Virus record (IMG/VR): IMGVR_UViG_3300025881_000008
Location: 40,075 to 104,074 of that record
Length of the DNA stretch: 64,000 nt
Reading direction: 5' to 3' (one strand)
Origin: a virus
This document shows, in pieces, positions 2 through 51,934 of this stretch (its first letter is position 1; each line of letters opens with the position of its first letter). Below the pieces are notes generated by a model, which saw only the letters and a program-made list of their open reading frames with translations, was not told the origin of the DNA and made no database searches. The translations under genes were made by a program, and so were the position numbers.

Positions 2-1054
2 TTTACCATACTCTACTCCAATTTTTTTATTTGTTTCAGCTAGCTTTCTGGCTAATAGTGATTCTGTAATTGCCACTGGTGATGAGGCTTTATAAAGAGG
101 CATTCTAGTAATAGTGGCCAATGTTAATAGAACTTCCATTGATCTTAATTGCTTGTCTATATAATAAACCAAACAGGAGTCAATTACGTTGTAGTAGACA
201 TATTTAGTAAAATCATTTTCATAAAGATCTTGTAATGAACCTGTGTATTTAATTTTGGTAACATCTAAAACTGCACCTGACACAAAGTCTAATGAGTTAG
301 ATTCTTTTACCGCAACTGATCTGTCATATTTGTCATATAATTGCATGTAATCTAAAATACCCATATGAAGAGGTCTACTATCATTTCTGTCAAGTGATCC
401 AGTGATCGCCACATCAGTCAGGTCGATCTGAAGTCTCTTGCAACGATTAACTATATACTGCCAGTCATAGTTGATAAAATTCCATCCAGTCATCATTGGG
501 AACTTAGGTAAAAACTTATGCAAGAATGTATATAACATATTGTACTCATTATCAAATTTATGATATGAGAATTCCCAATCTTGATCATAGTTCTTTAGGT
601 GGGCATTAGTATCTTTCTCAATTTTAGCAATCTGCTCTGATGTTAAATCTTCAAGACCTAATACAATTGCTTTACGCTCAGGCGTGATGATCGAGAAGGT
701 TAAGATACGTGACTTAGCCTCTTCTGGTTTTGGGAAACCATCAACGATTTCTGTTTCAATATCGACGAAATATGTTCGAGGCATATTGAATTCATAAATC
801 TCTTCTTTATCTGCCGCTGGCAGGCTATCCATAAAATAGAGTAGACTGAACTTATTAAATGACTTAGCGATACCTCTTTTTAGTGGGCGATTGTCCCAGT
901 TTCTAAAAGTCTTATCCTTATATTTATCTTTTTCTTCTGTAACTACCCAATTTTGGAATTGGTTTACAGTGTATCTTTTAAAGGAAACTTTACCCTCTTT
1001 GTCATAATAAGAGATGATAAGTTCCTTGTCAGTTTGTTCAATGTCTAATAGCAT
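2..1054 (-). CDS. Family B DNA polymerase (T4 gp43-like), N-terminal and 3'-5' exonuclease part; runs off the left edge of the window
   Basis: Hand translation from the ATG at 1054 (TAATG overlap with the dUTPase stop) gives MLLDIEQTDKE..., with ExoI YFVDIETE, ExoII MTGWNFINYDWQY and ExoIII YNVIDS. The frame is open to the window edge. Confidence 0.9.
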   Translation of the reverse strand, partial: MLLDIEQTDKELIISYYDKEGKVSFKRYTVNQFQNWVVTEEKDKYKDKTFRNWDNRPLKRGIAKSFNKFSLLYFMDSLPAADKEEIYEFNMPRTYFVDIETEIVDGFPKPEEAKSRILTFSIITPERKAIVLGLEDLTSEQIAKIEKDTNAHLKNYDQDWEFSYHKFDNEYNMLYTFLHKFLPKFPMMTGWNFINYDWQYIVNRCKRLQIDLTDVAITGSLDRNDSRPLHMGILDYMQLYDKYDRSVAVKESNSLDFVSGAVLDVTKIKYTGSLQDLYENDFTKYVYYNVIDSCLVYYIDKQLRSMEVLLTLATITRMPLYKASSPVAITESLLARKLAETNKKIGVEYGK

Positions 1055-43433: not shown

Positions 43434-43714
43434 TATCTAGTTTGATTGTCGTCTTTTTTAACGGTATAATTTTTGTAATTCTTTAAATACCTAGTTCCCT
43501 TTAAAAGGTTCTTGATCGCATCTTCTAAAAAGATTAGAAAATGTTGCATTGTTTGATTTCTTTGAATGTGACCAGAAAGTGATCTACCTATAAATTCACT
43601 AGGTGGCAAAGCATCATAGTTGTAACCAACATGAAGTCTTTCGTCCTTTCTAGCCTTAGTAGTGTCATATCTTTTAACACGTTTATATCCAAGTAAATTA
43701 TCAAATAAACCCAT
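43433..43714 (-). CDS. Small baseplate-associated hypothetical protein
   Basis: TAATG overlaps on both sides. Confidence 0.6.
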   Translation of the reverse strand: MGLFDNLLGYKRVKRYDTTKARKDERLHVGYNYDALPPSEFIGRSLSGHIQRNQTMQHFLIFLEDAIKNLLKGTRYLKNYKNYTVKKDDNQTR

Positions 43715-45543
43715 TATTTAAGTGCTTTTCTATTTCCAGCCTGCATTCTAGTGTATATCGTTCTAGGAACTGGTTCTGCTTCGAAGTTTATACTAACAGC
43801 AGCCTCGGAATTAATCAAAACATCATCAACGATTTCATCACCGTCTCTGTCTTGCCAGCCACCTCTAAATACTGCAACTTCTTCTTTTTCCATTATAATG
43901 TCACCCCATTGATCAAGGCCCTTAACAGTATAAGGTATTTCAGTGGTGTCCGTAACAGGTACTACTTTAACATCTTCAATTCTTTTAAAGTAAACATACT
44001 TTTGTTTACCATTACCAACAGTTTCTAACGTCACGGGCTCTTGTGGAGCAATTGTAACATTAACTGATTCATAATAACCTAATCTTCTAGCAGTCTCTTC
44101 AGTTTCTGAAATAAATTTAACGTTAACCGCATCAATACCTTCAATCTCTTCTAAGATATAGATGATATCAGATTTTGGTAGTTTATCTCTTCTTGTAATA
44201 TTCAGTAAATATTCAGACACTTTAGCTCTAACTGCATTATAGATTTCATCTTTAGTGTAACCTTCGAAATATCTAATATTAATATCAATACTATAATATC
44301 TTACTTGTGGCTTAACAAAAACAACTTCAGTAGTTACCATTTGTTGGCCACTATCTTCAAGAACTTTATGCATTGCATCATACTCGCCCTGATCTAAAAA
44401 CATCTCTTCTTGTGGTATTGTAAAATAGTCTTGATTTTTAGCCAATTTCTTTTTAATATCTGGTACTGCAAAAATATAGATAACATTATCGTCATCTAAA
44501 TATTGATCATCGGTTGTGTTATATGCATCTATATAAGAGAACATGTTATACCTTGATAAGAAATATTCATAATTGTCTGGCGTTGCCAGTACAAAAGACT
44601 TACTTGCCATCGGAGTCATAATCTTAGTGAATTGTGTATTCTCTCTATCACTGCCCATTTTTGGTGATGAAGTAATAGTTACGTCTAAGAATTCATTTAA
44701 GTCATGTTCAGTTCCATTTGAATCAGTACCCGTTGCATCCCATTTAATAGTTAAATCCGGCGAATCATCAAGATTACCAGCTAAACCTCCGTGTTTTACA
44801 TATTCTACTTCAATAATTGCACCAACCGGTGGCACCATACCAAAACTACCATTACCAAAATAAAGGTCTAGACCTCCACTAATTCCTGTTTTAATTAAGT
44901 ATGCCTTTTCATTTGAACCTAAGTCATATAATGAATTGTGTTTGGTCCAAAGTTCACCATTAACACTAACCGCAACTTTGCTGTGATCAGTAATACCACC
45001 AGTATTAATACTAAATGACTGCAATTTATTACCATCACTGGTTACTGTTTGTTTTTCAAATTTACCTTGAATAATAGCAGTCTTAAATGAATTGTAATTT
45101 GTTTTCTCTAATTTAAACTTATCTTTAGAATTTAAAAGCGTGTATGTTAGGCCATTAATATCAAATTTAAGTTGAGCTCTTGCATCTATGTTTAACGAAT
45201 TCCCGGCTACTTTACTTAAATCAGCTCCCGGTTTCCATCTAAATTCAATTTCACCAGTTGCTGCAAAACCCCTGGTTGCATCATGACCAGTTAATCTAGC
45301 CATTCCATAAATAGACTCCGGCTGTTGTGCAGTGTATATGTTCTGCTCTACTACAGAATCTTCAATATAGAACATGATTAATTCTACCATTTCTGATAGA
45401 ACACTGATTATTTGTGCGAATGGAGATGCCACGGTAAATAGAGTATTAGCTCTATTGTACACTCTAGAAATATAGGTTCTCGCATCGCTAGTAATATTAT
45501 CAGCGCTGGTTCTAATTGTACTTAAAAATTTTAATTCGGCCAT
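43714..45543 (-). CDS. Baseplate wedge subunit (T4 gp6 / baseplate J-like)
   Basis: EQNIYTAQQPESIYGMARLTG, LYFGNGSFGMVPP and VEYVKHGGLAGN; follows the gp25-like gene. Confidence 0.85.
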   Translation of the reverse strand: MAELKFLSTIRTSADNITSDARTYISRVYNRANTLFTVASPFAQIISVLSEMVELIMFYIEDSVVEQNIYTAQQPESIYGMARLTGHDATRGFAATGEIEFRWKPGADLSKVAGNSLNIDARAQLKFDINGLTYTLLNSKDKFKLEKTNYNSFKTAIIQGKFEKQTVTSDGNKLQSFSINTGGITDHSKVAVSVNGELWTKHNSLYDLGSNEKAYLIKTGISGGLDLYFGNGSFGMVPPVGAIIEVEYVKHGGLAGNLDDSPDLTIKWDATGTDSNGTEHDLNEFLDVTITSSPKMGSDRENTQFTKIMTPMASKSFVLATPDNYEYFLSRYNMFSYIDAYNTTDDQYLDDDNVIYIFAVPDIKKKLAKNQDYFTIPQEEMFLDQGEYDAMHKVLEDSGQQMVTTEVVFVKPQVRYYSIDINIRYFEGYTKDEIYNAVRAKVSEYLLNITRRDKLPKSDIIYILEEIEGIDAVNVKFISETEETARRLGYYESVNVTIAPQEPVTLETVGNGKQKYVYFKRIEDVKVVPVTDTTEIPYTVKGLDQWGDIIMEKEEVAVFRGGWQDRDGDEIVDDVLINSEAAVSINFEAEPVPRTIYTRMQAGNRKALK

Positions 45544-45560
45544 TATTTGTCTTTACTTTT

Positions 45561-45917
45561 TTATAGCATACTTACTTTAATAGCATATCTACTATCTATC
45601 GTAATATCTATATATGCAATATCTCTAACTTCACCTTTCATAAAATTCACCTCAGTTTTAATGTTATATTTTGTCGCAAGCGGACAATAGTGATTTATTT
45701 GATCAGTTATTCTAGATCTTATGTTGTGTTCATTTGATCCAAAGTCATATATAAGTTCCTCTAAACCGCAACCAAAATTAGGAGTACCCATTACCTCTCG
45801 CTTATTAGTGAATAGCAACGTTTGTATCTGCGTGATCAACATTTCTATCTCACTATTAGTCTGAACCTGTGTTTCATCGTAATTCGGGTCGCTCGGATAT
45901 TTTATATATAGTTCCAT
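45561..45917 (-). CDS. Baseplate gp25-like sheath initiator
   Basis: LLFTNKREVMGTPNFGCGLEELIY. Confidence 0.85.
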   Translation of the reverse strand: MELYIKYPSDPNYDETQVQTNSEIEMLITQIQTLLFTNKREVMGTPNFGCGLEELIYDFGSNEHNIRSRITDQINHYCPLATKYNIKTEVNFMKGEVRDIAYIDITIDSRYAIKVSML

Positions 45918-45938
45918 TTATCTATGTATCTTATTTAT

Positions 45939-46781
45939 TTAAGAGTGCATCATCCAATCAACACCTTCATCTCCTTTGATCTCTTCGTCAATGGCTGCTA
46001 ACTCATCATCTCCCATGGATTTAATAGCATCGTAATCAAAATCAACATTTCCGGGTAAAGCAAATTTAAAAATACCTAATTTAGTACCGATTGATTGTTT
46101 AATTTTAGCACTAACATATCTAAAGAAAATTTCATCGCTATATAGCGCACAATCTGGTATCGTCTCATACACCTCAAGAATAACATCTCCTTTAGGTGTA
46201 TCACCTAAGAATTTTAATTCACCGGTTAAACTTGAATAATTATATGATATGGGATTCTCTAGAATCTGTCTAGATAAGTCTGCCATCGAAGCATTCAATA
46301 CATAATATTGTAATTCTTCTGCAGCCTCAGCCATTCCAGAACCTTCATACATACCTCTAAATAGCATTCTTTCCATAGAAAAGTCAGAACCAGATTGGAA
46401 TCTTAAATCCATTCCACCACCGCCGCCATTCCATCCAGAAGCTAAGTCATATAAACCATAAACCGAGTATACTCCACCGCCACCATCTAAACCAGGGCCT
46501 GGTAAATTAAGTGCTCGGTGTGATTTAAAGTAATCAGTACTAAATACATTACTTGGTATATGATAGAAATTCTCTTTTACAGAGTACTCATATTTTTTAT
46601 AGAACCATTTTTTAGCTCTCTTAATAATATTAATGATTTCTTTTTGTGGTAGATTGATAGGAACCATACAGGCTCCAGTAATATCATCTGCTACTTCGTC
46701 TAAGAATAGATTTAAACAGTTAGGATCAAAATACCTTCCGGTAGTTAAATCATTATTTGAGCCGCTTATAATTTCACCCAT
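45939..46781 (-). CDS. Neck protein (T4 gp13-like)
   Basis: IIKRAKKWFY...; YVSAKIKQSIG..LGIF...LPGNVDFD C-terminus. Confidence 0.7.
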   Translation of the reverse strand: MGEIISGSNNDLTTGRYFDPNCLNLFLDEVADDITGACMVPINLPQKEIINIIKRAKKWFYKKYEYSVKENFYHIPSNVFSTDYFKSHRALNLPGPGLDGGGGVYSVYGLYDLASGWNGGGGGMDLRFQSGSDFSMERMLFRGMYEGSGMAEAAEELQYYVLNASMADLSRQILENPISYNYSSLTGELKFLGDTPKGDVILEVYETIPDCALYSDEIFFRYVSAKIKQSIGTKLGIFKFALPGNVDFDYDAIKSMGDDELAAIDEEIKGDEGVDWMMHS

Positions 46782-46788
46782 TTTTTAT

Positions 46789-48096
46789 TTATTTTATTTT
46801 TTTACTTACAACAATTTCTGTTTCTTCAAACCTAGCATCTTTGCTAGTGAAGCCCTCTCTAAATATACCACCTATCATTTTACCCCTAAACATAGTGTCT
46901 CTGCCGGCAACATAACAGTTGGTTAATTCACAACTACCATGCGTATAACTAGATTCAACTTTAGAGTCTTTCACTTTAGTAGCTCTATATAAACTACCCC
47001 ACATAACAGCAGAACTCGTGATATTGCAGTTATAAAAACTACAATTAGTTAAATTACCTGCAAGTTCACAATCAATAAATTCAAAATTTTCTAAAAGATA
47101 AACAGTTGGAAATTTACCATCTTTAACCTGTACCGCGCCATAATCTGAATCGTAGTTTATAACACCAGCGGTCATTGATCCATTTACAATAAGATCCATA
47201 ACTCTATTTTTAAACCTTTCCCATTGTACTCGTATAATAGTTGGATTATCTTGTAGATCGACTAATATTTGTATATCTGGCCAGTGCTCAGATACTTTAG
47301 AGTAATCTTTGAGCATATCCATTATGGGTTTATTCTTATTTATAATTCTCTGTAATTCAATTTTATTTTCAGCAGTAAAACGAGGATCGTTACAAGAGTT
47401 CCACATTTGCATTAGGAACCTTTCAATTAGGTATAAAATATTATCCGTTTTTTCCTCATAATCTGCACCACCCAAATATCTAAACTCAAGATAGTTCTTT
47501 TCTTTTTTAGAAAAGTTTATACCATAATATTTCGTATCGGCAAATTTAAAATTATTTGATGCTACTTGATTTGCATCAAAGTGAAATGCTTCCCATTTTG
47601 GCATTACCCATTTAATACTTTTAGCGTATGCTGATTTTTCTCTGTTTGGAAAAAACTTATAGATTTGTTGCTCATCAAAGTCTAAGATAAATTTAAGAAC
47701 ATTCATCTTAGAAATAAGTGCAGGATCCTCTAAATATTTTTTATCGAAAGATAAATTAATGTGGATTGACGCCCTATCATTGGTATATCCATTTTCAGAT
47801 ATCCAATTAAGCATTTTAATTACCATAATCCTAGCGTTTCTATACGGAATAGGACCAGTAACTAACTCGATTAGGCCTTTACCACCAGACATGTCTGGTT
47901 CCATTTTAAACTCTTCAGCTGAAGGTTGAAAATCAGAATGTGCCTTATCTTCTAACCTAATTTTTCGATCTAGAAGCTTTGCCAATGATTTTTGGGTAGC
48001 TTCTAGATCGAAATTAGAATAGAATTCAAACTCAACACCCATAAGTGCCGCGTTCAAAATTGATTCTCTTGAGGAATCTATAGTTAATTTTTGCAT
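46789..48096 (-). CDS. Putative amidoligase (COOH-NH2 ligase) with C-terminal beta-helix-like region
   Basis: GVEFEF, IELVT, SIHINLS, KYYGIN and YLEFR motifs. Confidence 0.75.
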   Translation of the reverse strand: MQKLTIDSSRESILNAALMGVEFEFYSNFDLEATQKSLAKLLDRKIRLEDKAHSDFQPSAEEFKMEPDMSGGKGLIELVTGPIPYRNARIMVIKMLNWISENGYTNDRASIHINLSFDKKYLEDPALISKMNVLKFILDFDEQQIYKFFPNREKSAYAKSIKWVMPKWEAFHFDANQVASNNFKFADTKYYGINFSKKEKNYLEFRYLGGADYEEKTDNILYLIERFLMQMWNSCNDPRFTAENKIELQRIINKNKPIMDMLKDYSKVSEHWPDIQILVDLQDNPTIIRVQWERFKNRVMDLIVNGSMTAGVINYDSDYGAVQVKDGKFPTVYLLENFEFIDCELAGNLTNCSFYNCNITSSAVMWGSLYRATKVKDSKVESSYTHGSCELTNCYVAGRDTMFRGKMIGGIFREGFTSKDARFEETEIVVSKKIK

Positions 48097-48152
48097 ATTA
48101 AGATTATGATATTATCGTTTGAATATATATCACGCTCTCGATGCGATAGTTA

Positions 48153-49448
48153 TTAAGGCATTTTCAAAAATACTTTCATTGACTCAACGTCAATTCTGGT
48201 AATTTGTACCGTGATTGGATCTCCGTTCTTAAATACGCTCATAACTTCTTCACCAACTTCGCTTACATGTAGTAGTCCAGTCACTCCTTCTTCAATACTA
48301 ATAAATAAACCGTAGTCTTTTTTAGTTTTGACAGTAGCTTCAACTACTGAAGGAATTTGATATCTAGATTGAATATCACTCCATGGATTAACAGTAGCAT
48401 TAGCCTTTTGAGTAAGTGTGATCTTAGTATCACTGATAATATCCTTAACGATAAATGTGATTTCATCACCAGGCTGAATCTGTCTAGCTTTGAATTTAAT
48501 AAGAGTTTCCTCATCTAAGTCGTTATTATGGATCATACCAGTCAAACAACCATTAAATTCAACAAATATACCATATTTAGCAGTACCTGTTACATTACCT
48601 GTAATTTCAGCACCTTGATTTGCTTTTATGTTTTCAATCTCGTTTGGAATTAAAGCCTGTAGATATTTTCTGTGAGAAACTACCAATGTACCTCTATCTG
48701 GTGAGAAACTTACAGGAACAACATAGATTTCAGTACCAATAATAGAACTAAAGTCATGTAGTTTATTAATACCTGCTAATGAACCTGGCATAAAACAATC
48801 AATTCCCTGAATATTTACCATATAACCACCATTCTCAATCATATGTGTAACTTTACCAACCCATGCGGTTCCACCAACTTCAACGGCTTCTCTAAGATCC
48901 ATAAAGACTCTGTGTTTTATACCACCGTTAATTGATCCGACTACATGTGAGTTGTTATCAGTTGAGGTAATTAAAACTGATGTTTCTTCACCCGGTTTTA
49001 AGGCTTGAATCGCAGCAGGTTCCTTATCATATTTAACATATATTAGTTCTCTGTAACCAATATCGACACTAATAAACTCTGAGCTAATACCATAAACCGT
49101 TCCAGTATGAATTTCTCCAACACCTACAATAGTTACCATATTACCCAAAGCAGCATCATGTGCGGTAAGCATGTCGTACATTTCTTGAGCATATGATTCT
49201 CTAGAAAAGACCTTATCGCCATTCATGGTTTTAATATGTGGATTTGGTTTTTTGGTTTTTGATGGGCAACTAGCTTCATAAGCATCCCACATGAAGTTTC
49301 CCTCTTCATCGTAATAATCATCCGATATATCACCACCATCTGATTTAAGATCTTTTAAGTTTTCGACCGTGATGTCTAGTTCTTCAACTTCTACAGTATT
49401 GACTTTAGTTTCGCCAATTCTGATCCTTTTGTTTTTTTCGTTGTTCAT
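48153..49448 (-). CDS. Ribosomal protein bS1 homolog (four S1 domains)
   Basis: Four OB/S1 repeats (e.g. GNVTGTAKYGIFVEF..LTGMIH; VKTKKDYGLFISI.EGVTGLLHVSE), FMPGS and VVSHR; N-terminal FMWDAYE. Confidence 0.88.
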   Translation of the reverse strand: MNNEKNKRIRIGETKVNTVEVEELDITVENLKDLKSDGGDISDDYYDEEGNFMWDAYEASCPSKTKKPNPHIKTMNGDKVFSRESYAQEMYDMLTAHDAALGNMVTIVGVGEIHTGTVYGISSEFISVDIGYRELIYVKYDKEPAAIQALKPGEETSVLITSTDNNSHVVGSINGGIKHRVFMDLREAVEVGGTAWVGKVTHMIENGGYMVNIQGIDCFMPGSLAGINKLHDFSSIIGTEIYVVPVSFSPDRGTLVVSHRKYLQALIPNEIENIKANQGAEITGNVTGTAKYGIFVEFNGCLTGMIHNNDLDEETLIKFKARQIQPGDEITFIVKDIISDTKITLTQKANATVNPWSDIQSRYQIPSVVEATVKTKKDYGLFISIEEGVTGLLHVSEVGEEVMSVFKNGDPITVQITRIDVESMKVFLKMP

Positions 49449-49493
49449 TTATTTTTATATTAAAGGTGTAACATATTATATATCTATTTATTT

Positions 49494-51218
49494 TTAGAAG
49501 ACTACCGGTACAAAACCTACCATCGGCACGGGACCTACTGGTGTTGGTATACCTCCTAAATAGAGTAATTTAAATTCTAACAAGTGTAGAGCATATACCG
49601 CGGCAACTGCTGTAGAAACCGCAAGTGCTGGTGGTTGAGGTGCTGGCAATACACTAAATGTTTTACCAGTATTCCAAGCTCTTCTAAGATTTTTAGCTAG
49701 TCTCTTTTTACCACCATAATAAATCGGTATATAAATACCAGTTAATGGTGGGGGAATTAAAGCTGGCAAAGCAGATGGTGATGGAGCAAATGGTTTAACT
49801 AAACATGCATACCAATACGCAATAGTTATTTCAGCCATTTCTTCATATGGATCTCCACCTGGCCAACTAAAATTTATATCAACATCCTCCTCTGCCGTGT
49901 CACATTCGTCAGCTGCTTTTTTAGCATCAATAACCTGTTGTCTTTGAAACTTAAAAATAGTACCGCCGGCGTTTGGGCTTATATTAATAATATCATCAGC
50001 TGACTTAACATTTTTAATGGCTCCGGGAATTTTTGCCCAATGTATATCGTACTCTAATTTTTCATATTGTGCCGTTACATATGTGTTGTCTTTTTTCCAC
50101 CAAATCACTTTAGTATCGTCGGATACACCGTATTTAAAACTCATTTCAGATCCGTTGTCATATGAAAAAAGAGCAACTACATGGTCCGTTAAAATTTTAG
50201 GTCTTTTGCTTGGATAATCTGGCAAATTATGTTCCCTGTCAAAAGAAACCTGTATTTTGTATTCAGAGAGTGGACAGTCTGACATTTTAAAATTGTCTAA
50301 ACCGGCTTCAAACGCCGAACTTACACCATCAACCAGGGCTTGCCAATCATATCCTGCGCCCTCTATATCTGTTCTAGCTTTTTCACTCACATTAACGTAT
50401 GGAAATCTACCGACAAAATAAGTACCTCCAACCGCTCGCTGTATTTCAGTAAGATTATTGTACTTTGATTTACCTAAACTGGTGGCCCATAATTTATATT
50501 TGTCTTTTGCTTCTTGACTGGACAAATTGTGATATTGCTGTAATAATCTATTTGCAAATGACTTGGCCAAATCTGATACAGTTTCTGAACCGTCTAAACA
50601 TTCAAACTCAAAAAATCTAAACTTATATAAGTTTAAACTCTGTTTGTAATCTTCAACAAATTTATTAAATTTCTTTTGTTGTTTCTTTTCTTCTTCGATT
50701 GGATCTGGCTCTTCAATGGGTTCTGGACAAAAATCGGCATATGCTGGATGAGACTCTTTGCCCATTTCAATTATATTACCGTCTTTATCTTTCTGGTCTA
50801 ATAAAGGAATATCGCCCTCTCTTAATATTCTTTCAAACACCAAGCCATAACCCTGTTTTAAAAGAAACTCTGCCGCTGGATTATTAGTATGTGTTGCACC
50901 AAATGGTGTCATTGCTAATCCCTTTATTGCCTCTAGATATCTTTCTGCTACTCTTACACCAAAATCATATCGACCACTTAATGGGTTTAAATTAATAGCA
51001 TTAATCATCGATGTCGGATCAGTCGTCAAGTTAGCATTAACTGGATTTCCGGGTTTAATAGATTCTATTAATTCTGAAGATGGGGGGAAAATAGGCACTT
51101 GATCCTTGCCAACTTTTGGCAGATCATAAGATACCATACCGCCACCCGGTTTAGTAAACGACTGCCCCGATATATCGGACGCTAATGCTGGTATAAATGA
51201 TGGCCAAAGTGCGGGCAT
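49494..51218 (-). CDS. Hypothetical virion protein next to the spike gene
   Basis: 574 aa with a Pro-rich, hydrophobic C-terminus. Confidence 0.5.
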   Translation of the reverse strand: MPALWPSFIPALASDISGQSFTKPGGGMVSYDLPKVGKDQVPIFPPSSELIESIKPGNPVNANLTTDPTSMINAINLNPLSGRYDFGVRVAERYLEAIKGLAMTPFGATHTNNPAAEFLLKQGYGLVFERILREGDIPLLDQKDKDGNIIEMGKESHPAYADFCPEPIEEPDPIEEEKKQQKKFNKFVEDYKQSLNLYKFRFFEFECLDGSETVSDLAKSFANRLLQQYHNLSSQEAKDKYKLWATSLGKSKYNNLTEIQRAVGGTYFVGRFPYVNVSEKARTDIEGAGYDWQALVDGVSSAFEAGLDNFKMSDCPLSEYKIQVSFDREHNLPDYPSKRPKILTDHVVALFSYDNGSEMSFKYGVSDDTKVIWWKKDNTYVTAQYEKLEYDIHWAKIPGAIKNVKSADDIINISPNAGGTIFKFQRQQVIDAKKAADECDTAEEDVDINFSWPGGDPYEEMAEITIAYWYACLVKPFAPSPSALPALIPPPLTGIYIPIYYGGKKRLAKNLRRAWNTGKTFSVLPAPQPPALAVSTAVAAVYALHLLEFKLLYLGGIPTPVGPVPMVGFVPVVF

Positions 51219-51220
51219 AA

Positions 51221-51934
51221 TTATTTACCTTTTTGTTGATAGTTAATATGAGTGCTCGATAATTTTCCTACTGTTATTGGAGTTGGTGGCATTGGGGGTC
51301 CAGAAGGACCCACGCCAGTTGGATGTATATGTGCATTATAATCGTCTAACCACATTTGTAACCAATCCTGTAGAGATTGACCCCTCACTGCTGGTTCTGT
51401 TTCATCTGCTCCCGGCTCGCCCGTATTTGAAACGAATATATCACCACAGTCTAAGAACATTTTAGCATCTGTACTGATTTTTATAAATCCCTCTTCGTCC
51501 ATTTGAATGATTGGGCGCTCTTTGGCACCGCTACCTCTTGTGATAACTAAACCATCTTCAGGAGAATGATAGATCCTTACGTTGCGCACAGCATCATATA
51601 CTAGCGATATAACATCATGTGGTGCATCAGAAGTTTCTAAAATATCTGACTTAAGATCTGTATTTTGATCTATTTGAAACCAGTATTCAGGGTGGTAGAT
51701 GTTACCGTTGTCAAAACGAACTGCAACAATATCACCAACTCTAGGTACTGCATGTGCACCAACTTGATCCCTATTCATAGGGGTTGCCCACGGAATTGCA
51801 TCATCAGTTAGTTTATCAAATTTACCATAAACTTTAACCCTACATCTTCCGTTTAAAAGAGGATCTTCGTTAACTACAACTTCCCCAAGCCAGTGTTGAT
51901 CCCTTAAATTATCTTTAAAAAGTTCATCAGCCAT
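51221..51934 (-). CDS. Baseplate central spike (gp5/gpV OB-fold)
   Basis: GEVVVNEDPL..GRCRVKV.G, IPWA, VPRVGD.V.V.F.NG and an HxH tip motif (AHIHPTG); no lysozyme domain. Confidence 0.88.
   Translation of the reverse strand: MADELFKDNLRDQHWLGEVVVNEDPLLNGRCRVKVYGKFDKLTDDAIPWATPMNRDQVGAHAVPRVGDIVAVRFDNGNIYHPEYWFQIDQNTDLKSDILETSDAPHDVISLVYDAVRNVRIYHSPEDGLVITRGSGAKERPIIQMDEEGFIKISTDAKMFLDCGDIFVSNTGEPGADETEPAVRGQSLQDWLQMWLDDYNAHIHPTGVGPSGPPMPPTPITVGKLSSTHINYQQKGK

What the first reader, a model, noticed from the sequence alone, without database searches (positions are those of the whole stretch)
48153..49484. Phage-encoded ribosomal protein bS1 with a Bacteroidetes-type anchor, placed among late genes
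Seen: four S1 domains (host bS1 typically has six) and an N-terminal NFMWDAYE, which resembles the FNWDAYE N-terminus I recall for Bacteroides bS1; a late-promoter motif lies upstream; the phage genes lack SD sequences. Known: S1 homologs have been reported in some huge phages, and Bacteroidota initiate translation largely without SD pairing. Inference: it replaces host bS1 to favour A-rich phage late mRNAs. It is also the best host clue in the window.
Basis: partly seen in the sequence, partly recalled or inferred. Interest (0 to 1): 0.7.

Follow-up and report, generated by a model that had tools for sequence, protein, structure and literature searches.

The report
Phage four-domain ribosomal protein S1 copy
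A large uncultured marine phage carries, among its baseplate genes, a shortened copy of bacterial ribosomal protein S1 that keeps the two short helices Bacteroidia bacteria use to dock S1 on the ribosome; phage S1 genes have been reported since 2020, so this is a well-supported member of a known, still untested kind.

Summary
A 431-aa gene lies on the minus strand at 48153-49448. It has four S1/OB domains colinear with D1-D4 of cellular bS1. In front of them are a disordered 41-residue extension and a helix-loop-helix.

Helix 1 (NFMWDAYE) matches the F[DN]W helix of Bacteroidia bS1. Phocaeicola vulgatus has exactly FNWDAYE, and in Flavobacterium johnsoniae this helix contacts uS8. Helix 2 (SYAQEMYDML) matches the uS2-binding helix.

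GATATATAA lies 27 nt upstream of the start. All 21 copies in the contig are on the coding strand, and those with annotated genes precede virion genes. Only 5 of 89 ORFs have an SD-like core.

The gene sits between the baseplate hub and wedge genes in all 80 related viral contigs examined, and in a 462-kb huge phage. dN/dS is about 0.07.

On a D1-D4 tree all four-domain phage proteins, including those of Lak and huge phages, form one clade outside cellular bS1. The donor is unresolved.

Most likely the protein docks on host 30S subunits late in infection and helps SD-less phage mRNAs. That step is inferred; the complex prediction gave weak support only.

Al-Shayeb et al. 2020 reported phage rpS1 and its link with missing SD sequences. 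This scan has also found the same gene in at least 64 other genomes. It is a new member of a known kind.

The parts
48153..49448 (-). Phage four-domain bS1 homologue, 431 aa
   Evidence: ORF. Best NCBIfam hit NF004952 (bS1), 161.9 bits, E 1.9e-47, below the 524-bit cut-off. E. coli bS1 D1-D4, E 9e-42. Foldseek top hit bS1 on the 30S subunit, 9gut_B, E 1e-27. dN/dS 0.07 against the nearest relatives.
49476..49484 (-). Late-type promoter-like motif GATATATAA, 27 nt before the ATG
   Evidence: All 21 copies in the contig are on the coding strand. They precede tail tube, sheath, major head protein, prohead protease, portal and baseplate genes. The motif is conserved upstream of S1 in the relatives examined.
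49449..49475 (-). A/U-rich, SD-less leader (TATGTTACACCTTTAATATAAAAATAA), nearly invariant among relatives
   Evidence: Upstream regions of 20 related loci, whose S1 proteins are 63-96% identical to the window's, keep this sequence almost unchanged.
49326..49448 (-). Residues 1-41: disordered extension with a conserved basic tip (MNxEKNKRxRIGE) and a variable acidic linker
   Evidence: pLDDT below 50. M1, K7, R8 and R10 are invariant in 16 family members.
49275..49298 (-). Residues 51-58, NFMWDAYE: helix 1, the counterpart of the Bacteroidia bS1 helix that contacts uS8
   Evidence: AF2 helix 54-60. Bacteroidota bS1 motifs FNWDAYE, FDWDAYE and FNWHNF. hhalign P 7.9e-5. F. johnsoniae bS1 residues 11-20, FLANFNWHNF, contact uS8 (PMC13000457).
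49197..49274 (-). Residues 59-84: phage-specific conserved loop between the two helices (C61, K67, N69, P70, H71, T74, G77, D78 invariant)
   Evidence: It appears as a 23-residue insertion relative to Bacteroidales bS1 in BLASTP. Invariant columns. Lak-A1 has a loop of the same length with the same IKT and KVFS spacing.
49146..49196 (-). Residues 85-101, SYAQEMYDMLTAHDAAL: helix 2, the counterpart of the uS2-binding N-terminal helix of bS1
   Evidence: AF2 helix 87-101. It lies just N-terminal to D1, like SENFAELFEQS in a gammaproteobacterial-type bS1 (P0269) and the (E/K)xYDxxL helix in Bacteroidia. Complex prediction with F. johnsoniae uS2 and uS8: weak support, 0.47 against a best control of 0.00.
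48933..49118 (-). Domain D1 (residues 111-172), a degenerate OB domain
   Evidence: Pfam S1 does not recognise it.
48675..48863 (-). Domain D2 (residues 196-258), a degenerate OB domain with the invariant CFMPGSLAGINKL
48408..48614 (-). Domain D3 (residues 279-347), a canonical S1 RNA-binding domain
   Evidence: Pfam PF00575.
48156..48356 (-). Domain D4 (residues 365-431), a canonical S1 RNA-binding domain; the protein ends here, with no D5 or D6
   Evidence: Best Pfam PF00575 stretch, 367-428.
48123..48131 (-). Next late-type motif, GATATATAT, serving the downstream 435-aa gene; S1 therefore looks like a transcription unit of its own or the head of one
43714..48096 (-). Downstream neighbours: 435-aa gene, 280-aa gene, gp25-like gene and baseplate wedge (J-like) gene
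   Evidence: Pfam and PHROGs. The order is kept in 80 of 80 related loci and in LR756500.
49494..51934 (-). Upstream neighbours: variable 574-aa gene and baseplate hub (VgrG/gp27-type OB domain)

Best explanation
This gene is a phage descendant of ribosomal protein bS1. It keeps the ribosome-docking half: the Bacteroidia-type N-terminal helix-loop-helix plus D1-D2. It also keeps two RNA-binding domains (D3-D4) and has lost D5-D6.

The phage is a large marine myovirus, probably with a Bacteroidia host, whose own mRNAs have A-rich leaders without SD sequences. The gene is transcribed from its own late-type promoter together with the virion genes.

The protein most likely docks on host 30S subunits at the bS1 site, with helix 1 against uS8 and helix 2 plus D1 against uS2. 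From there D3-D4 would capture unstructured A/U-rich leaders. This would sustain or bias SD-less initiation during the burst of late protein synthesis.

Shown: homology, domain order, anchor motifs, promoter motif, absence of SD sequences, conserved position in the baseplate gene order, purifying selection.

Inferred: binding to the 30S subunit, competition with host bS1, and any preference for phage mRNAs.
For: - Colinear with D1-D4 of E. coli bS1, E 9e-42, and with residues 12-366 of a Bacteroidales bS1, anchor motif included.
- The 12 best NCBIfam hits are all bS1 models, E from 1.9e-47 to 2.9e-18 (one is the fused IspH/bS1). Non-ribosomal S1 proteins match one domain only, best E 4.1e-18.
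- The AF2 model shows a helix-loop-helix followed by four OB domains. The Foldseek top hits are bS1 bound to the 30S subunit.
- Helix 1 motif is F-x-W-D-A-Y-E. It equals FNWDAYE of Phocaeicola vulgatus and resembles FNWHNF of the F. johnsoniae type. hhalign on the N-terminal segments alone gives P 7.9e-5. In F. johnsoniae this helix contacts uS8, and the bS1 N-terminus binds uS2 and uS8 (PMC13000457).
- The motif was absent from the N-termini of 51 long bacterial bS1 representatives.
- Complex prediction with F. johnsoniae uS2 and uS8, partner residues 45-175: weak support. Median score 0.47, best of 3 controls 0.00. The runs agree in at least 77% of contacts and the partner pLDDT is at least 71. 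In the tool's calibration the mark was reached by 58 of 80 solved complexes and 2 of 110 mismatched pairs, but only 7 of those 80 scored 0.60 or under. bS1-uS2 complexes are solved, so the pass may reflect likeness.
- SD cores occur in 5 of 89 ORFs, and leaders are A-rich.
- Late-type motif.
- Strong constraint: dN/dS 0.07. 452 IMG/VR stretches confirmed by tblastn (80 distinct loci kept) and more than 1700 proteins encode relatives.
- Host lineage: the wedge protein's relatives are phages of Bacteroidota.
Against: - There is no experimental evidence for any phage S1.
- The score against every bS1 equivalog model is far below its cut-off: 161.9 bits against 524.
- D5-D6 are missing.
- The loop between the two anchor helices carries a 23-residue insertion, which could alter docking.
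- The D1-D4 tree puts the protein in a long-branched, phage-only clade outside all cellular bS1.
- Only 17 of 60 representatives of that clade keep the FxW motif.
- Late expression is odd for a take-over factor.
- The complex prediction is weak, uses a stand-in host, and may be driven by solved bS1-uS2 structures.
Confidence: 0.55

Rival explanations
1. Off-ribosome RNA-binding factor. The protein would use D3-D4 to chaperone or protect late phage mRNAs. Alternatively it would act as a cofactor of a phage enzyme, as host bS1 does for T4 RegB and for Qbeta replicase. In that case D1-D2 and the N-terminal helices would bind a phage partner instead of uS2 and uS8.
For: - D1-D2 of E. coli bS1 are also the surface that binds Qbeta replicase; PDB 4q7j and 4r71 are among the hits.
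- The protein belongs to a long-branched, phage-only clade.
- It carries a phage-specific conserved loop and a basic N-terminal tip.
- Many clade members lack the FxW helix.
Against: The two helices that Bacteroidia bS1 uses for uS8 and uS2 are kept in order and in position. In the complex prediction, replacing uS2 dropped the score to 0.00 (weak support only).
Confidence: 0.2
2. Dominant-negative occupant of the bS1 site. The protein would dock on 30S subunits, but without D5-D6 it could not support host mRNAs. That would shut off host translation, while phage leaders would need only D3-D4.
For: It has the same docking evidence as the best explanation. D5-D6 are absent in every member of the clade examined; lengths are about 370-450 aa.
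Against: Late timing is poor for host shut-off. From memory, not tested here: four-domain bS1 proteins work as normal ribosomal proteins in several bacterial lineages, and in E. coli the first domains were reported to carry the main activities.
Confidence: 0.12
3. Virion-associated cargo. The protein would be made with the baseplate and neck proteins, packaged, and delivered with the DNA, so that it acts on ribosomes at the very start of the next infection.
For: - Its place between the baseplate hub and wedge genes is fixed in 80 of 80 related loci. It is the same in the 462-kb phage LR756500, where S1 is only 37% identical.
- It has its own late-type promoter.
- It has a conserved basic N-terminal tip ahead of a disordered linker, of unknown role.
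Against: - Gene order in structural modules is conserved anyway, so the position may be passive.
- In Lak-A1 and LR756501 the S1 gene lies more than 100 kb from the wedge gene.
- No virion proteome is available.
- There is no similarity to any virion protein; the gene has no PHROG hit.
Confidence: 0.07

Closest known systems
Putative rpS1 genes of huge phages (Al-Shayeb et al. 2020, PMC7162821), including LR756500, LR745206, LR756501-4 and the Lak phages of Prevotella
   Same: They fall in the same clade on the D1-D4 tree (100* support). They share the four-domain size. LR756500 has the same gene order: hub, S1, 435-aa gene, gp25-like, wedge. Lak-A1 has FNWTPYE, a loop and KVFSHESYAQELYD. The genomes lack SD sequences, as that paper reported.
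   Different: Identity is only 29-37%. This lineage is marine, about 300 kb by CheckV's estimate (the contig is 34% of a genome). It adds a 41-residue extension. The paper did not describe the anchor helices or the baseplate position.
bS1 (RpsA) of class Bacteroidia, for example Flavobacterium johnsoniae (PDB 9zcd chain A; PMC13000457) and Phocaeicola vulgatus
   Same: An N-terminal helix-loop-helix with the F[DN]W helix (which contacts uS8) and a second helix before D1. D1-D4 are colinear.
   Different: The cellular proteins have six domains and about 590-600 aa. Identity is only 23%. The phage protein has a 23-residue loop insertion and a 50-residue N-terminal extension, lacks D5-D6, and lies outside the Bacteroidota clade on the tree.
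Escherichia coli bS1 (for example PDB 6h4n chain y and 9gut chain B)
   Same: D1-D4 are colinear, E 9e-42. It is the best structural match. D1 and D2 are degenerate in both, so Pfam sees only the later domains.
   Different: E. coli bS1 has no FxW helix, has six domains, and works in an SD-using host.
bS1 of the jumbo cyanophage PhiMa05 (PMC13157829)
   Same: It is a phage-encoded bS1 homologue that is proposed to replace the host protein.
   Different: It was acquired recently from a Vampirovibrio-like host, sits next to other ribosomal protein genes, and is not in a baseplate module. The family studied here is old and found only in phages.

Membership tests
Ribosomal protein bS1 (RpsA) | Tandem S1/OB domains in the bS1 order: degenerate D1-D2, then canonical RNA-binding domains | tested here: met
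   Residues 111-428 align colinearly with E. coli bS1 21-344. Four OB domains in the model. Pfam S1 matches D3-D4 only.
Ribosomal protein bS1 (RpsA) | Score above the curated cut-off of a bS1 equivalog model | tested here: not met
   The best hit is NF004952 at 161.9 bits against a cut-off of 524. All the bS1 models are missed. A true Bacteroidales bS1 scores 969.6 bits against 720.
Ribosomal protein bS1 (RpsA) | N-terminal helix that binds uS2 | tested here: inconclusive
   A helix at 87-101 (SYAQEMYDML...) is present at the right place. The complex prediction with uS2 and uS8 gave weak support only: 0.47, best control 0.00.
Ribosomal protein bS1 (RpsA) | Placement within cellular bS1 on a tree | tested here: not met
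   The protein is in a phage-only clade separated from 78 cellular bS1 by a long branch with 100* support.
Ribosomal protein bS1 (RpsA) | Physical component of the 30S subunit | not testable with these tools
   This needs sedimentation, mass spectrometry or cryo-EM of ribosomes from infected cells.
Bacteroidia-type bS1 anchor (N-terminal helix-loop-helix contacting uS8 and uS2) | An F-[DN]-W aromatic helix a short distance upstream of the second helix and D1 | tested here: met
   Phage FMWDAYE at 52-58. The motif is in 22 of 32 Bacteroidota bS1 and in 0 of 51 other long bS1 N-termini. hhalign P 7.9e-5. Structural role taken from PMC13000457.
Bacteroidia-type bS1 anchor (N-terminal helix-loop-helix contacting uS8 and uS2) | Short loop of about 10-14 residues between the helices | tested here: not met
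   The phage loop is about 26 residues, a conserved 23-residue insertion.
Phage four-domain S1 (huge-phage rpS1 of Al-Shayeb et al. 2020) | Monophyly with the Lak and LR7565xx S1 homologues; size about 370-450 aa | tested here: met
   One clade of 57 rows with 100* support, and again under the mixture model.
Phage four-domain S1 (huge-phage rpS1 of Al-Shayeb et al. 2020) | Genome largely without SD sequences | tested here: met
   5 of 89 ORFs; compare PMC7162821.

The most novel reading that the evidence does not exclude
The S1 copy is a virion cargo. It would be made with the baseplate proteins, packaged, and delivered with the DNA. Host ribosomes would then receive a phage-type S1 before any phage gene is expressed. 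This would explain its ancient, fixed place between the hub and wedge genes, its late promoter, and the conserved basic N-terminal tip.
Probability: 0.07. Interest if true: 0.8.

Novelty: new member of a known kind. Interest (0 to 1): 0.38.

Why it matters
How ribosomes of Bacteroidia choose start codons without SD pairing is still being worked out, and bS1 is a prime suspect. This is a large, old and abundant phage family: 452 tblastn-confirmed stretches in IMG/VR contigs, strongly constrained. It has kept exactly the lineage-specific docking helices plus two RNA-binding domains. That gives a natural minimal S1 for testing what is needed for SD-less initiation, and whether phages retune it.

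The general idea is published, and this scan has met the same gene many times. The value here is a precise, testable docking hypothesis: helix 1 against uS8, and helix 2 plus D1 against uS2. It is not a new kind of system.

Tried and rejected
- PHROGs gave no family for the protein.
- A search of PDB sequences with the N-terminal 91 residues alone found nothing meaningful.
- A mixed phage and bacterial alignment was too diverse for a genome-contig scan.
- The listing of cluster members gave no names or taxa.
- The D1-D4 phylogeny could not locate a donor. The quick LG+G4 tree and the mixture-model tree attach the phage clade to poorly supported deep nodes. A constrained phage-plus-Bacteroidota tree was not rejected and even had the higher likelihood (p-AU 0.885). 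The tree therefore neither supports nor excludes a Bacteroidota origin. The 'careful' search did not finish in the time given.
- I asked whether the motif is only a general promoter. Wherever a function could be assigned, it precedes virion genes: tube, sheath, head closure, major head protein, protease, portal. 'Late-type' therefore stands as an inference.
- I asked whether the conserved S1 leader is special. The leader of the next gene is conserved too, though less so. It is a trait of these promoters rather than clear evidence of S1 autoregulation.
- No bS21 gene was found in this 104-kb piece, but the piece is only about 34% of a genome.
- No tRNA genes were found.
- Sharon et al. 2011, cited by Mizuno et al. 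for early virome bS1 reports, is not held in the library.

Full report
**The gene**

The finding's coordinates hold one minus-strand ORF. The ATG is at 49448, the stop is at 48153-48155, and the protein has 431 aa. The stated end, 49484, is the 5' end of an upstream motif.

The window is bases 40075-104074 of a 104-kb IMG/VR virus record that CheckV rates 34% complete. Nearly all genes are on the minus strand, and G+C is about 33%.

**Is it bS1?**

- Pfam sees S1 domains only in the C-terminal half.
- The 12 best NCBIfam matches are all bS1 models (one is the fused IspH/bS1). The best is NF004952: 161.9 bits, E 1.9e-47, protein residues 79-430 on profile positions 22-373 of 580. All are far below their cut-offs.
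- Non-ribosomal S1 proteins match a single domain only.
- Against PDB sequences, residues 111-428 align colinearly with residues 21-344 of E. coli bS1, which are D1-D4, at E 9e-42.
- An AlphaFold2 model built on 81 sequences has mean pLDDT 81.4 and pTM 0.61. Residues 1-41 are disordered. Helices lie at 54-60 (plus 62-65) and at 87-101. Four OB domains lie at 113-172, 196-258, 281-346 and 367-429.
- The Foldseek top hits are E. coli bS1 on the 30S subunit, with 9gut_B at E 1e-27.

The protein is therefore a derivative of bS1 that keeps D1-D4 and lacks D5-D6.

**The anchor**

One record in the phage collection, MT835643.1, turned out to be a bacterial fragment. It carries a genuine six-domain bS1 of 597 aa (969.6 bits against a cut-off of 720), next to genes for RNase Z and PurT. 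A scan of species genomes showed that this protein is Bacteroidales bS1, 80-89% identical to Parabacteroides, Muribaculaceae, Prevotellaceae, Bacteroides and Phocaeicola.

I then sampled 81 genomes of the phylum and read the N-termini of 32 bS1 loci.

- 22 of the 32 carry F[DN]W. Variants include FDWDAYE, FDWDAFE, FDWDSFE, FNWHNF and DFDWSIDK.
- The motif is followed about 20 residues later by a second helix of the type (E/K)xYDxxL, and then by D1.
- Ten deep-branching members lack the motif.
- None of 51 long bacterial bS1 representatives from an all-database search has it at the N-terminus.

BLASTP aligns phage residues 51-428 with residues 12-366 of the Bacteroidales protein, at 23% identity. 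NFMWDAYE falls on NFDWDAFE, and the phage carries a 23-residue insertion before helix 2. A profile-profile comparison of the N-terminal segments alone pairs EGNFMWDAYEAS with VEDFNWDAYENG at P 7.9e-5.

The function of this segment is known from a 2026 cryo-EM study of F. johnsoniae (PMC13000457). Residues 1-42 of bS1 form a helix-loop-helix, the aromatic helix FLANFNWHNF contacts uS8, and the N-terminus is held by uS2 and uS8. PDB 9zcd chain A is that type of protein. The phage protein therefore keeps both docking helices of its presumed host lineage.

I sent residues 45-175 with F. johnsoniae uS2 and uS8 to the complex predictor. The verdict was weak support.

- Median score 0.47; best of three controls 0.00.
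- The runs agree in at least 77% of contacts, and the partner's pLDDT is at least 71.
- In the tool's calibration the mark was reached by 58 of 80 solved complexes and 2 of 110 mismatched pairs, but only 7 of those 80 scored 0.60 or under.
- bS1-uS2 complexes are solved, so a pass may reflect likeness to them.

**Surroundings**

The neighbours are baseplate genes: a wedge (J-like) gene at 43714-45543, a gp25-like gene at 45561-45917, and a hub with a VgrG-type OB domain at 51221-51934.

GATATATAW occurs 21 times in the 104-kb contig. All copies are on the coding strand and none on the other, against about 4 per strand expected. Each lies 3-64 nt upstream of a start codon. Where the genes behind it could be named, they are tail tube, tail sheath, head closure, major head protein, prohead protease and portal. 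In the window they are baseplate-cluster genes, S1 among them.

S1 has its own copy 27 nt before the ATG, and the next gene has another. 'Late-type promoter' is thus a fair inference.

Only 5 of 89 ORFs have a 4-mer SD core. Upstream regions are 45-73% A and 4-13% G, with a peak of A at -14. This is the pattern described for Bacteroidia.

**Host**

The wedge protein's best relatives are as follows:

- the huge phage LR756500 (41% identity) and LR756501-4;
- the Lak phages of Prevotella;
- Tenacibaculum phages pT24 and PTm1;
- Chryseobacterium and Flavobacterium phages.

Al-Shayeb et al. predicted Bacteroidetes hosts for the largest of these. A Bacteroidota host is therefore likely on evidence other than S1. 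Given the Tara and other marine sources, it is probably a marine member of the Flavobacteriia.

**The family**

- More than 1700 proteins match. The best 120 are mostly 412-447 aa (a few are fragments of 314-366 aa) and 62-99% identical.
- 452 candidate stretches in IMG/VR contigs were confirmed by tblastn; the 80 best loci were kept.
- In all 80 loci fetched, the order is hub, 574-aa gene, S1, 435-aa gene, 280-aa gene, gp25-like, wedge.
- The same order holds in LR756500, where S1 is only 37% identical.
- In Lak-A1 and LR756501 the S1 gene lies far from the wedge gene.
- dN/dS against the nearest relatives is 0.07.
- The promoter and leader, GATATATAWTATGTTACACYTTTAATATAAAAATAAATG, are almost invariant among relatives whose S1 proteins are 63-96% identical. 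The next gene's leader is conserved too, but less so.

**Tree**

I used the D1-D4 columns only, leaving the anchor out. All 57 four-domain proteins form one clade with 100* support. They include the window, its marine relatives, unnamed representatives, Lak-A1 and four LR records. A long branch separates them from 78 cellular bS1. The mixture model gives the same picture on a reduced set of 76 rows, with 23 four-domain proteins against 53 cellular bS1.

Where the clade attaches is not resolved. A constrained phage-plus-Bacteroidota tree is not rejected (p-AU 0.885).

17 of 60 clade representatives keep the FxW motif. Lak-A1 has FNWTPYE, a loop of the same length and KVFSHESYAQELYD.

The picture is of an old S1 lineage found only in phages. 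Its only specific link to Bacteroidia is the anchor.

**Mechanism**

The most likely reading (0.55) is that the protein docks at the bS1 site of host 30S subunits late in infection, and that D3-D4 capture A/U-rich leaders without SD sequences. F. johnsoniae bS1 is reported to stimulate initiation on SD-less mRNA.

The rivals are an off-ribosome RNA-binding or cofactor role (0.2), a dominant-negative occupant of the bS1 site (0.12) and virion cargo (0.07). Nothing beyond homology, motifs and a weak complex prediction bears on binding.

**What is already known**

- Al-Shayeb et al. 2020 reported possible rpS1 in huge phages. They noted that such phages rarely have SD sequences, and proposed substitution for host proteins.
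- Mizuno et al. 2019 mention earlier virome reports of bS1 but set S1-domain proteins aside as ambiguous.
- PhiMa05 carries a recently acquired bS1.
- This scan has noted the same gene in at least 64 other genomes, and earlier follow-ups reached the same reading. I reached mine before reading them.

**Verdict**

This is a new member of a known kind, of moderate interest.

Noticed in passing
window 48097-48152 and 49449-49484 (minus strand); loci L117-L196: Both the S1 leader and the next gene's leader look bipartite. GATATATAW is followed about 10-12 nt later by TAATAT(A/C)A, and both parts are conserved among relatives. The S1 leader is nearly invariant. This could be a second promoter element or a translational signal.
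   Followed up: partly
L003 (MT835643.1, listed as 'Bacteriophage sp.' in the phage collection): This record is a Bacteroidales chromosomal fragment, not a phage. It carries a full six-domain rpsA, RNase Z, purT and a glycoside hydrolase.
   Followed up: yes
window 49326-49448 and 49197-49274 (minus strand): Two phage-specific conserved pieces have no known role. One is the basic tip MNxEKNKRxRIGE at the very N-terminus. The other is the loop C-x5-K-x-NPH-IKT-x2-GDKV-x-SRE between the anchor helices, with an invariant Cys and His.
   Followed up: no
window 49494-51218 (minus strand): The 574-aa gene between the baseplate hub and S1 is the most variable gene of the block, at 38-90% identity among relatives. 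Some relatives hold about 1.6 kb of extra DNA between it and S1 (L173-L178, L182-L186). It may determine host range.
   Followed up: no
G000 contig bases 1-40074 (L197, L198): The part of the contig before the window holds the tail tube, tail sheath (948 aa), major head protein, prohead protease and portal genes. Each is behind the same GATATATAW motif.
   Followed up: partly
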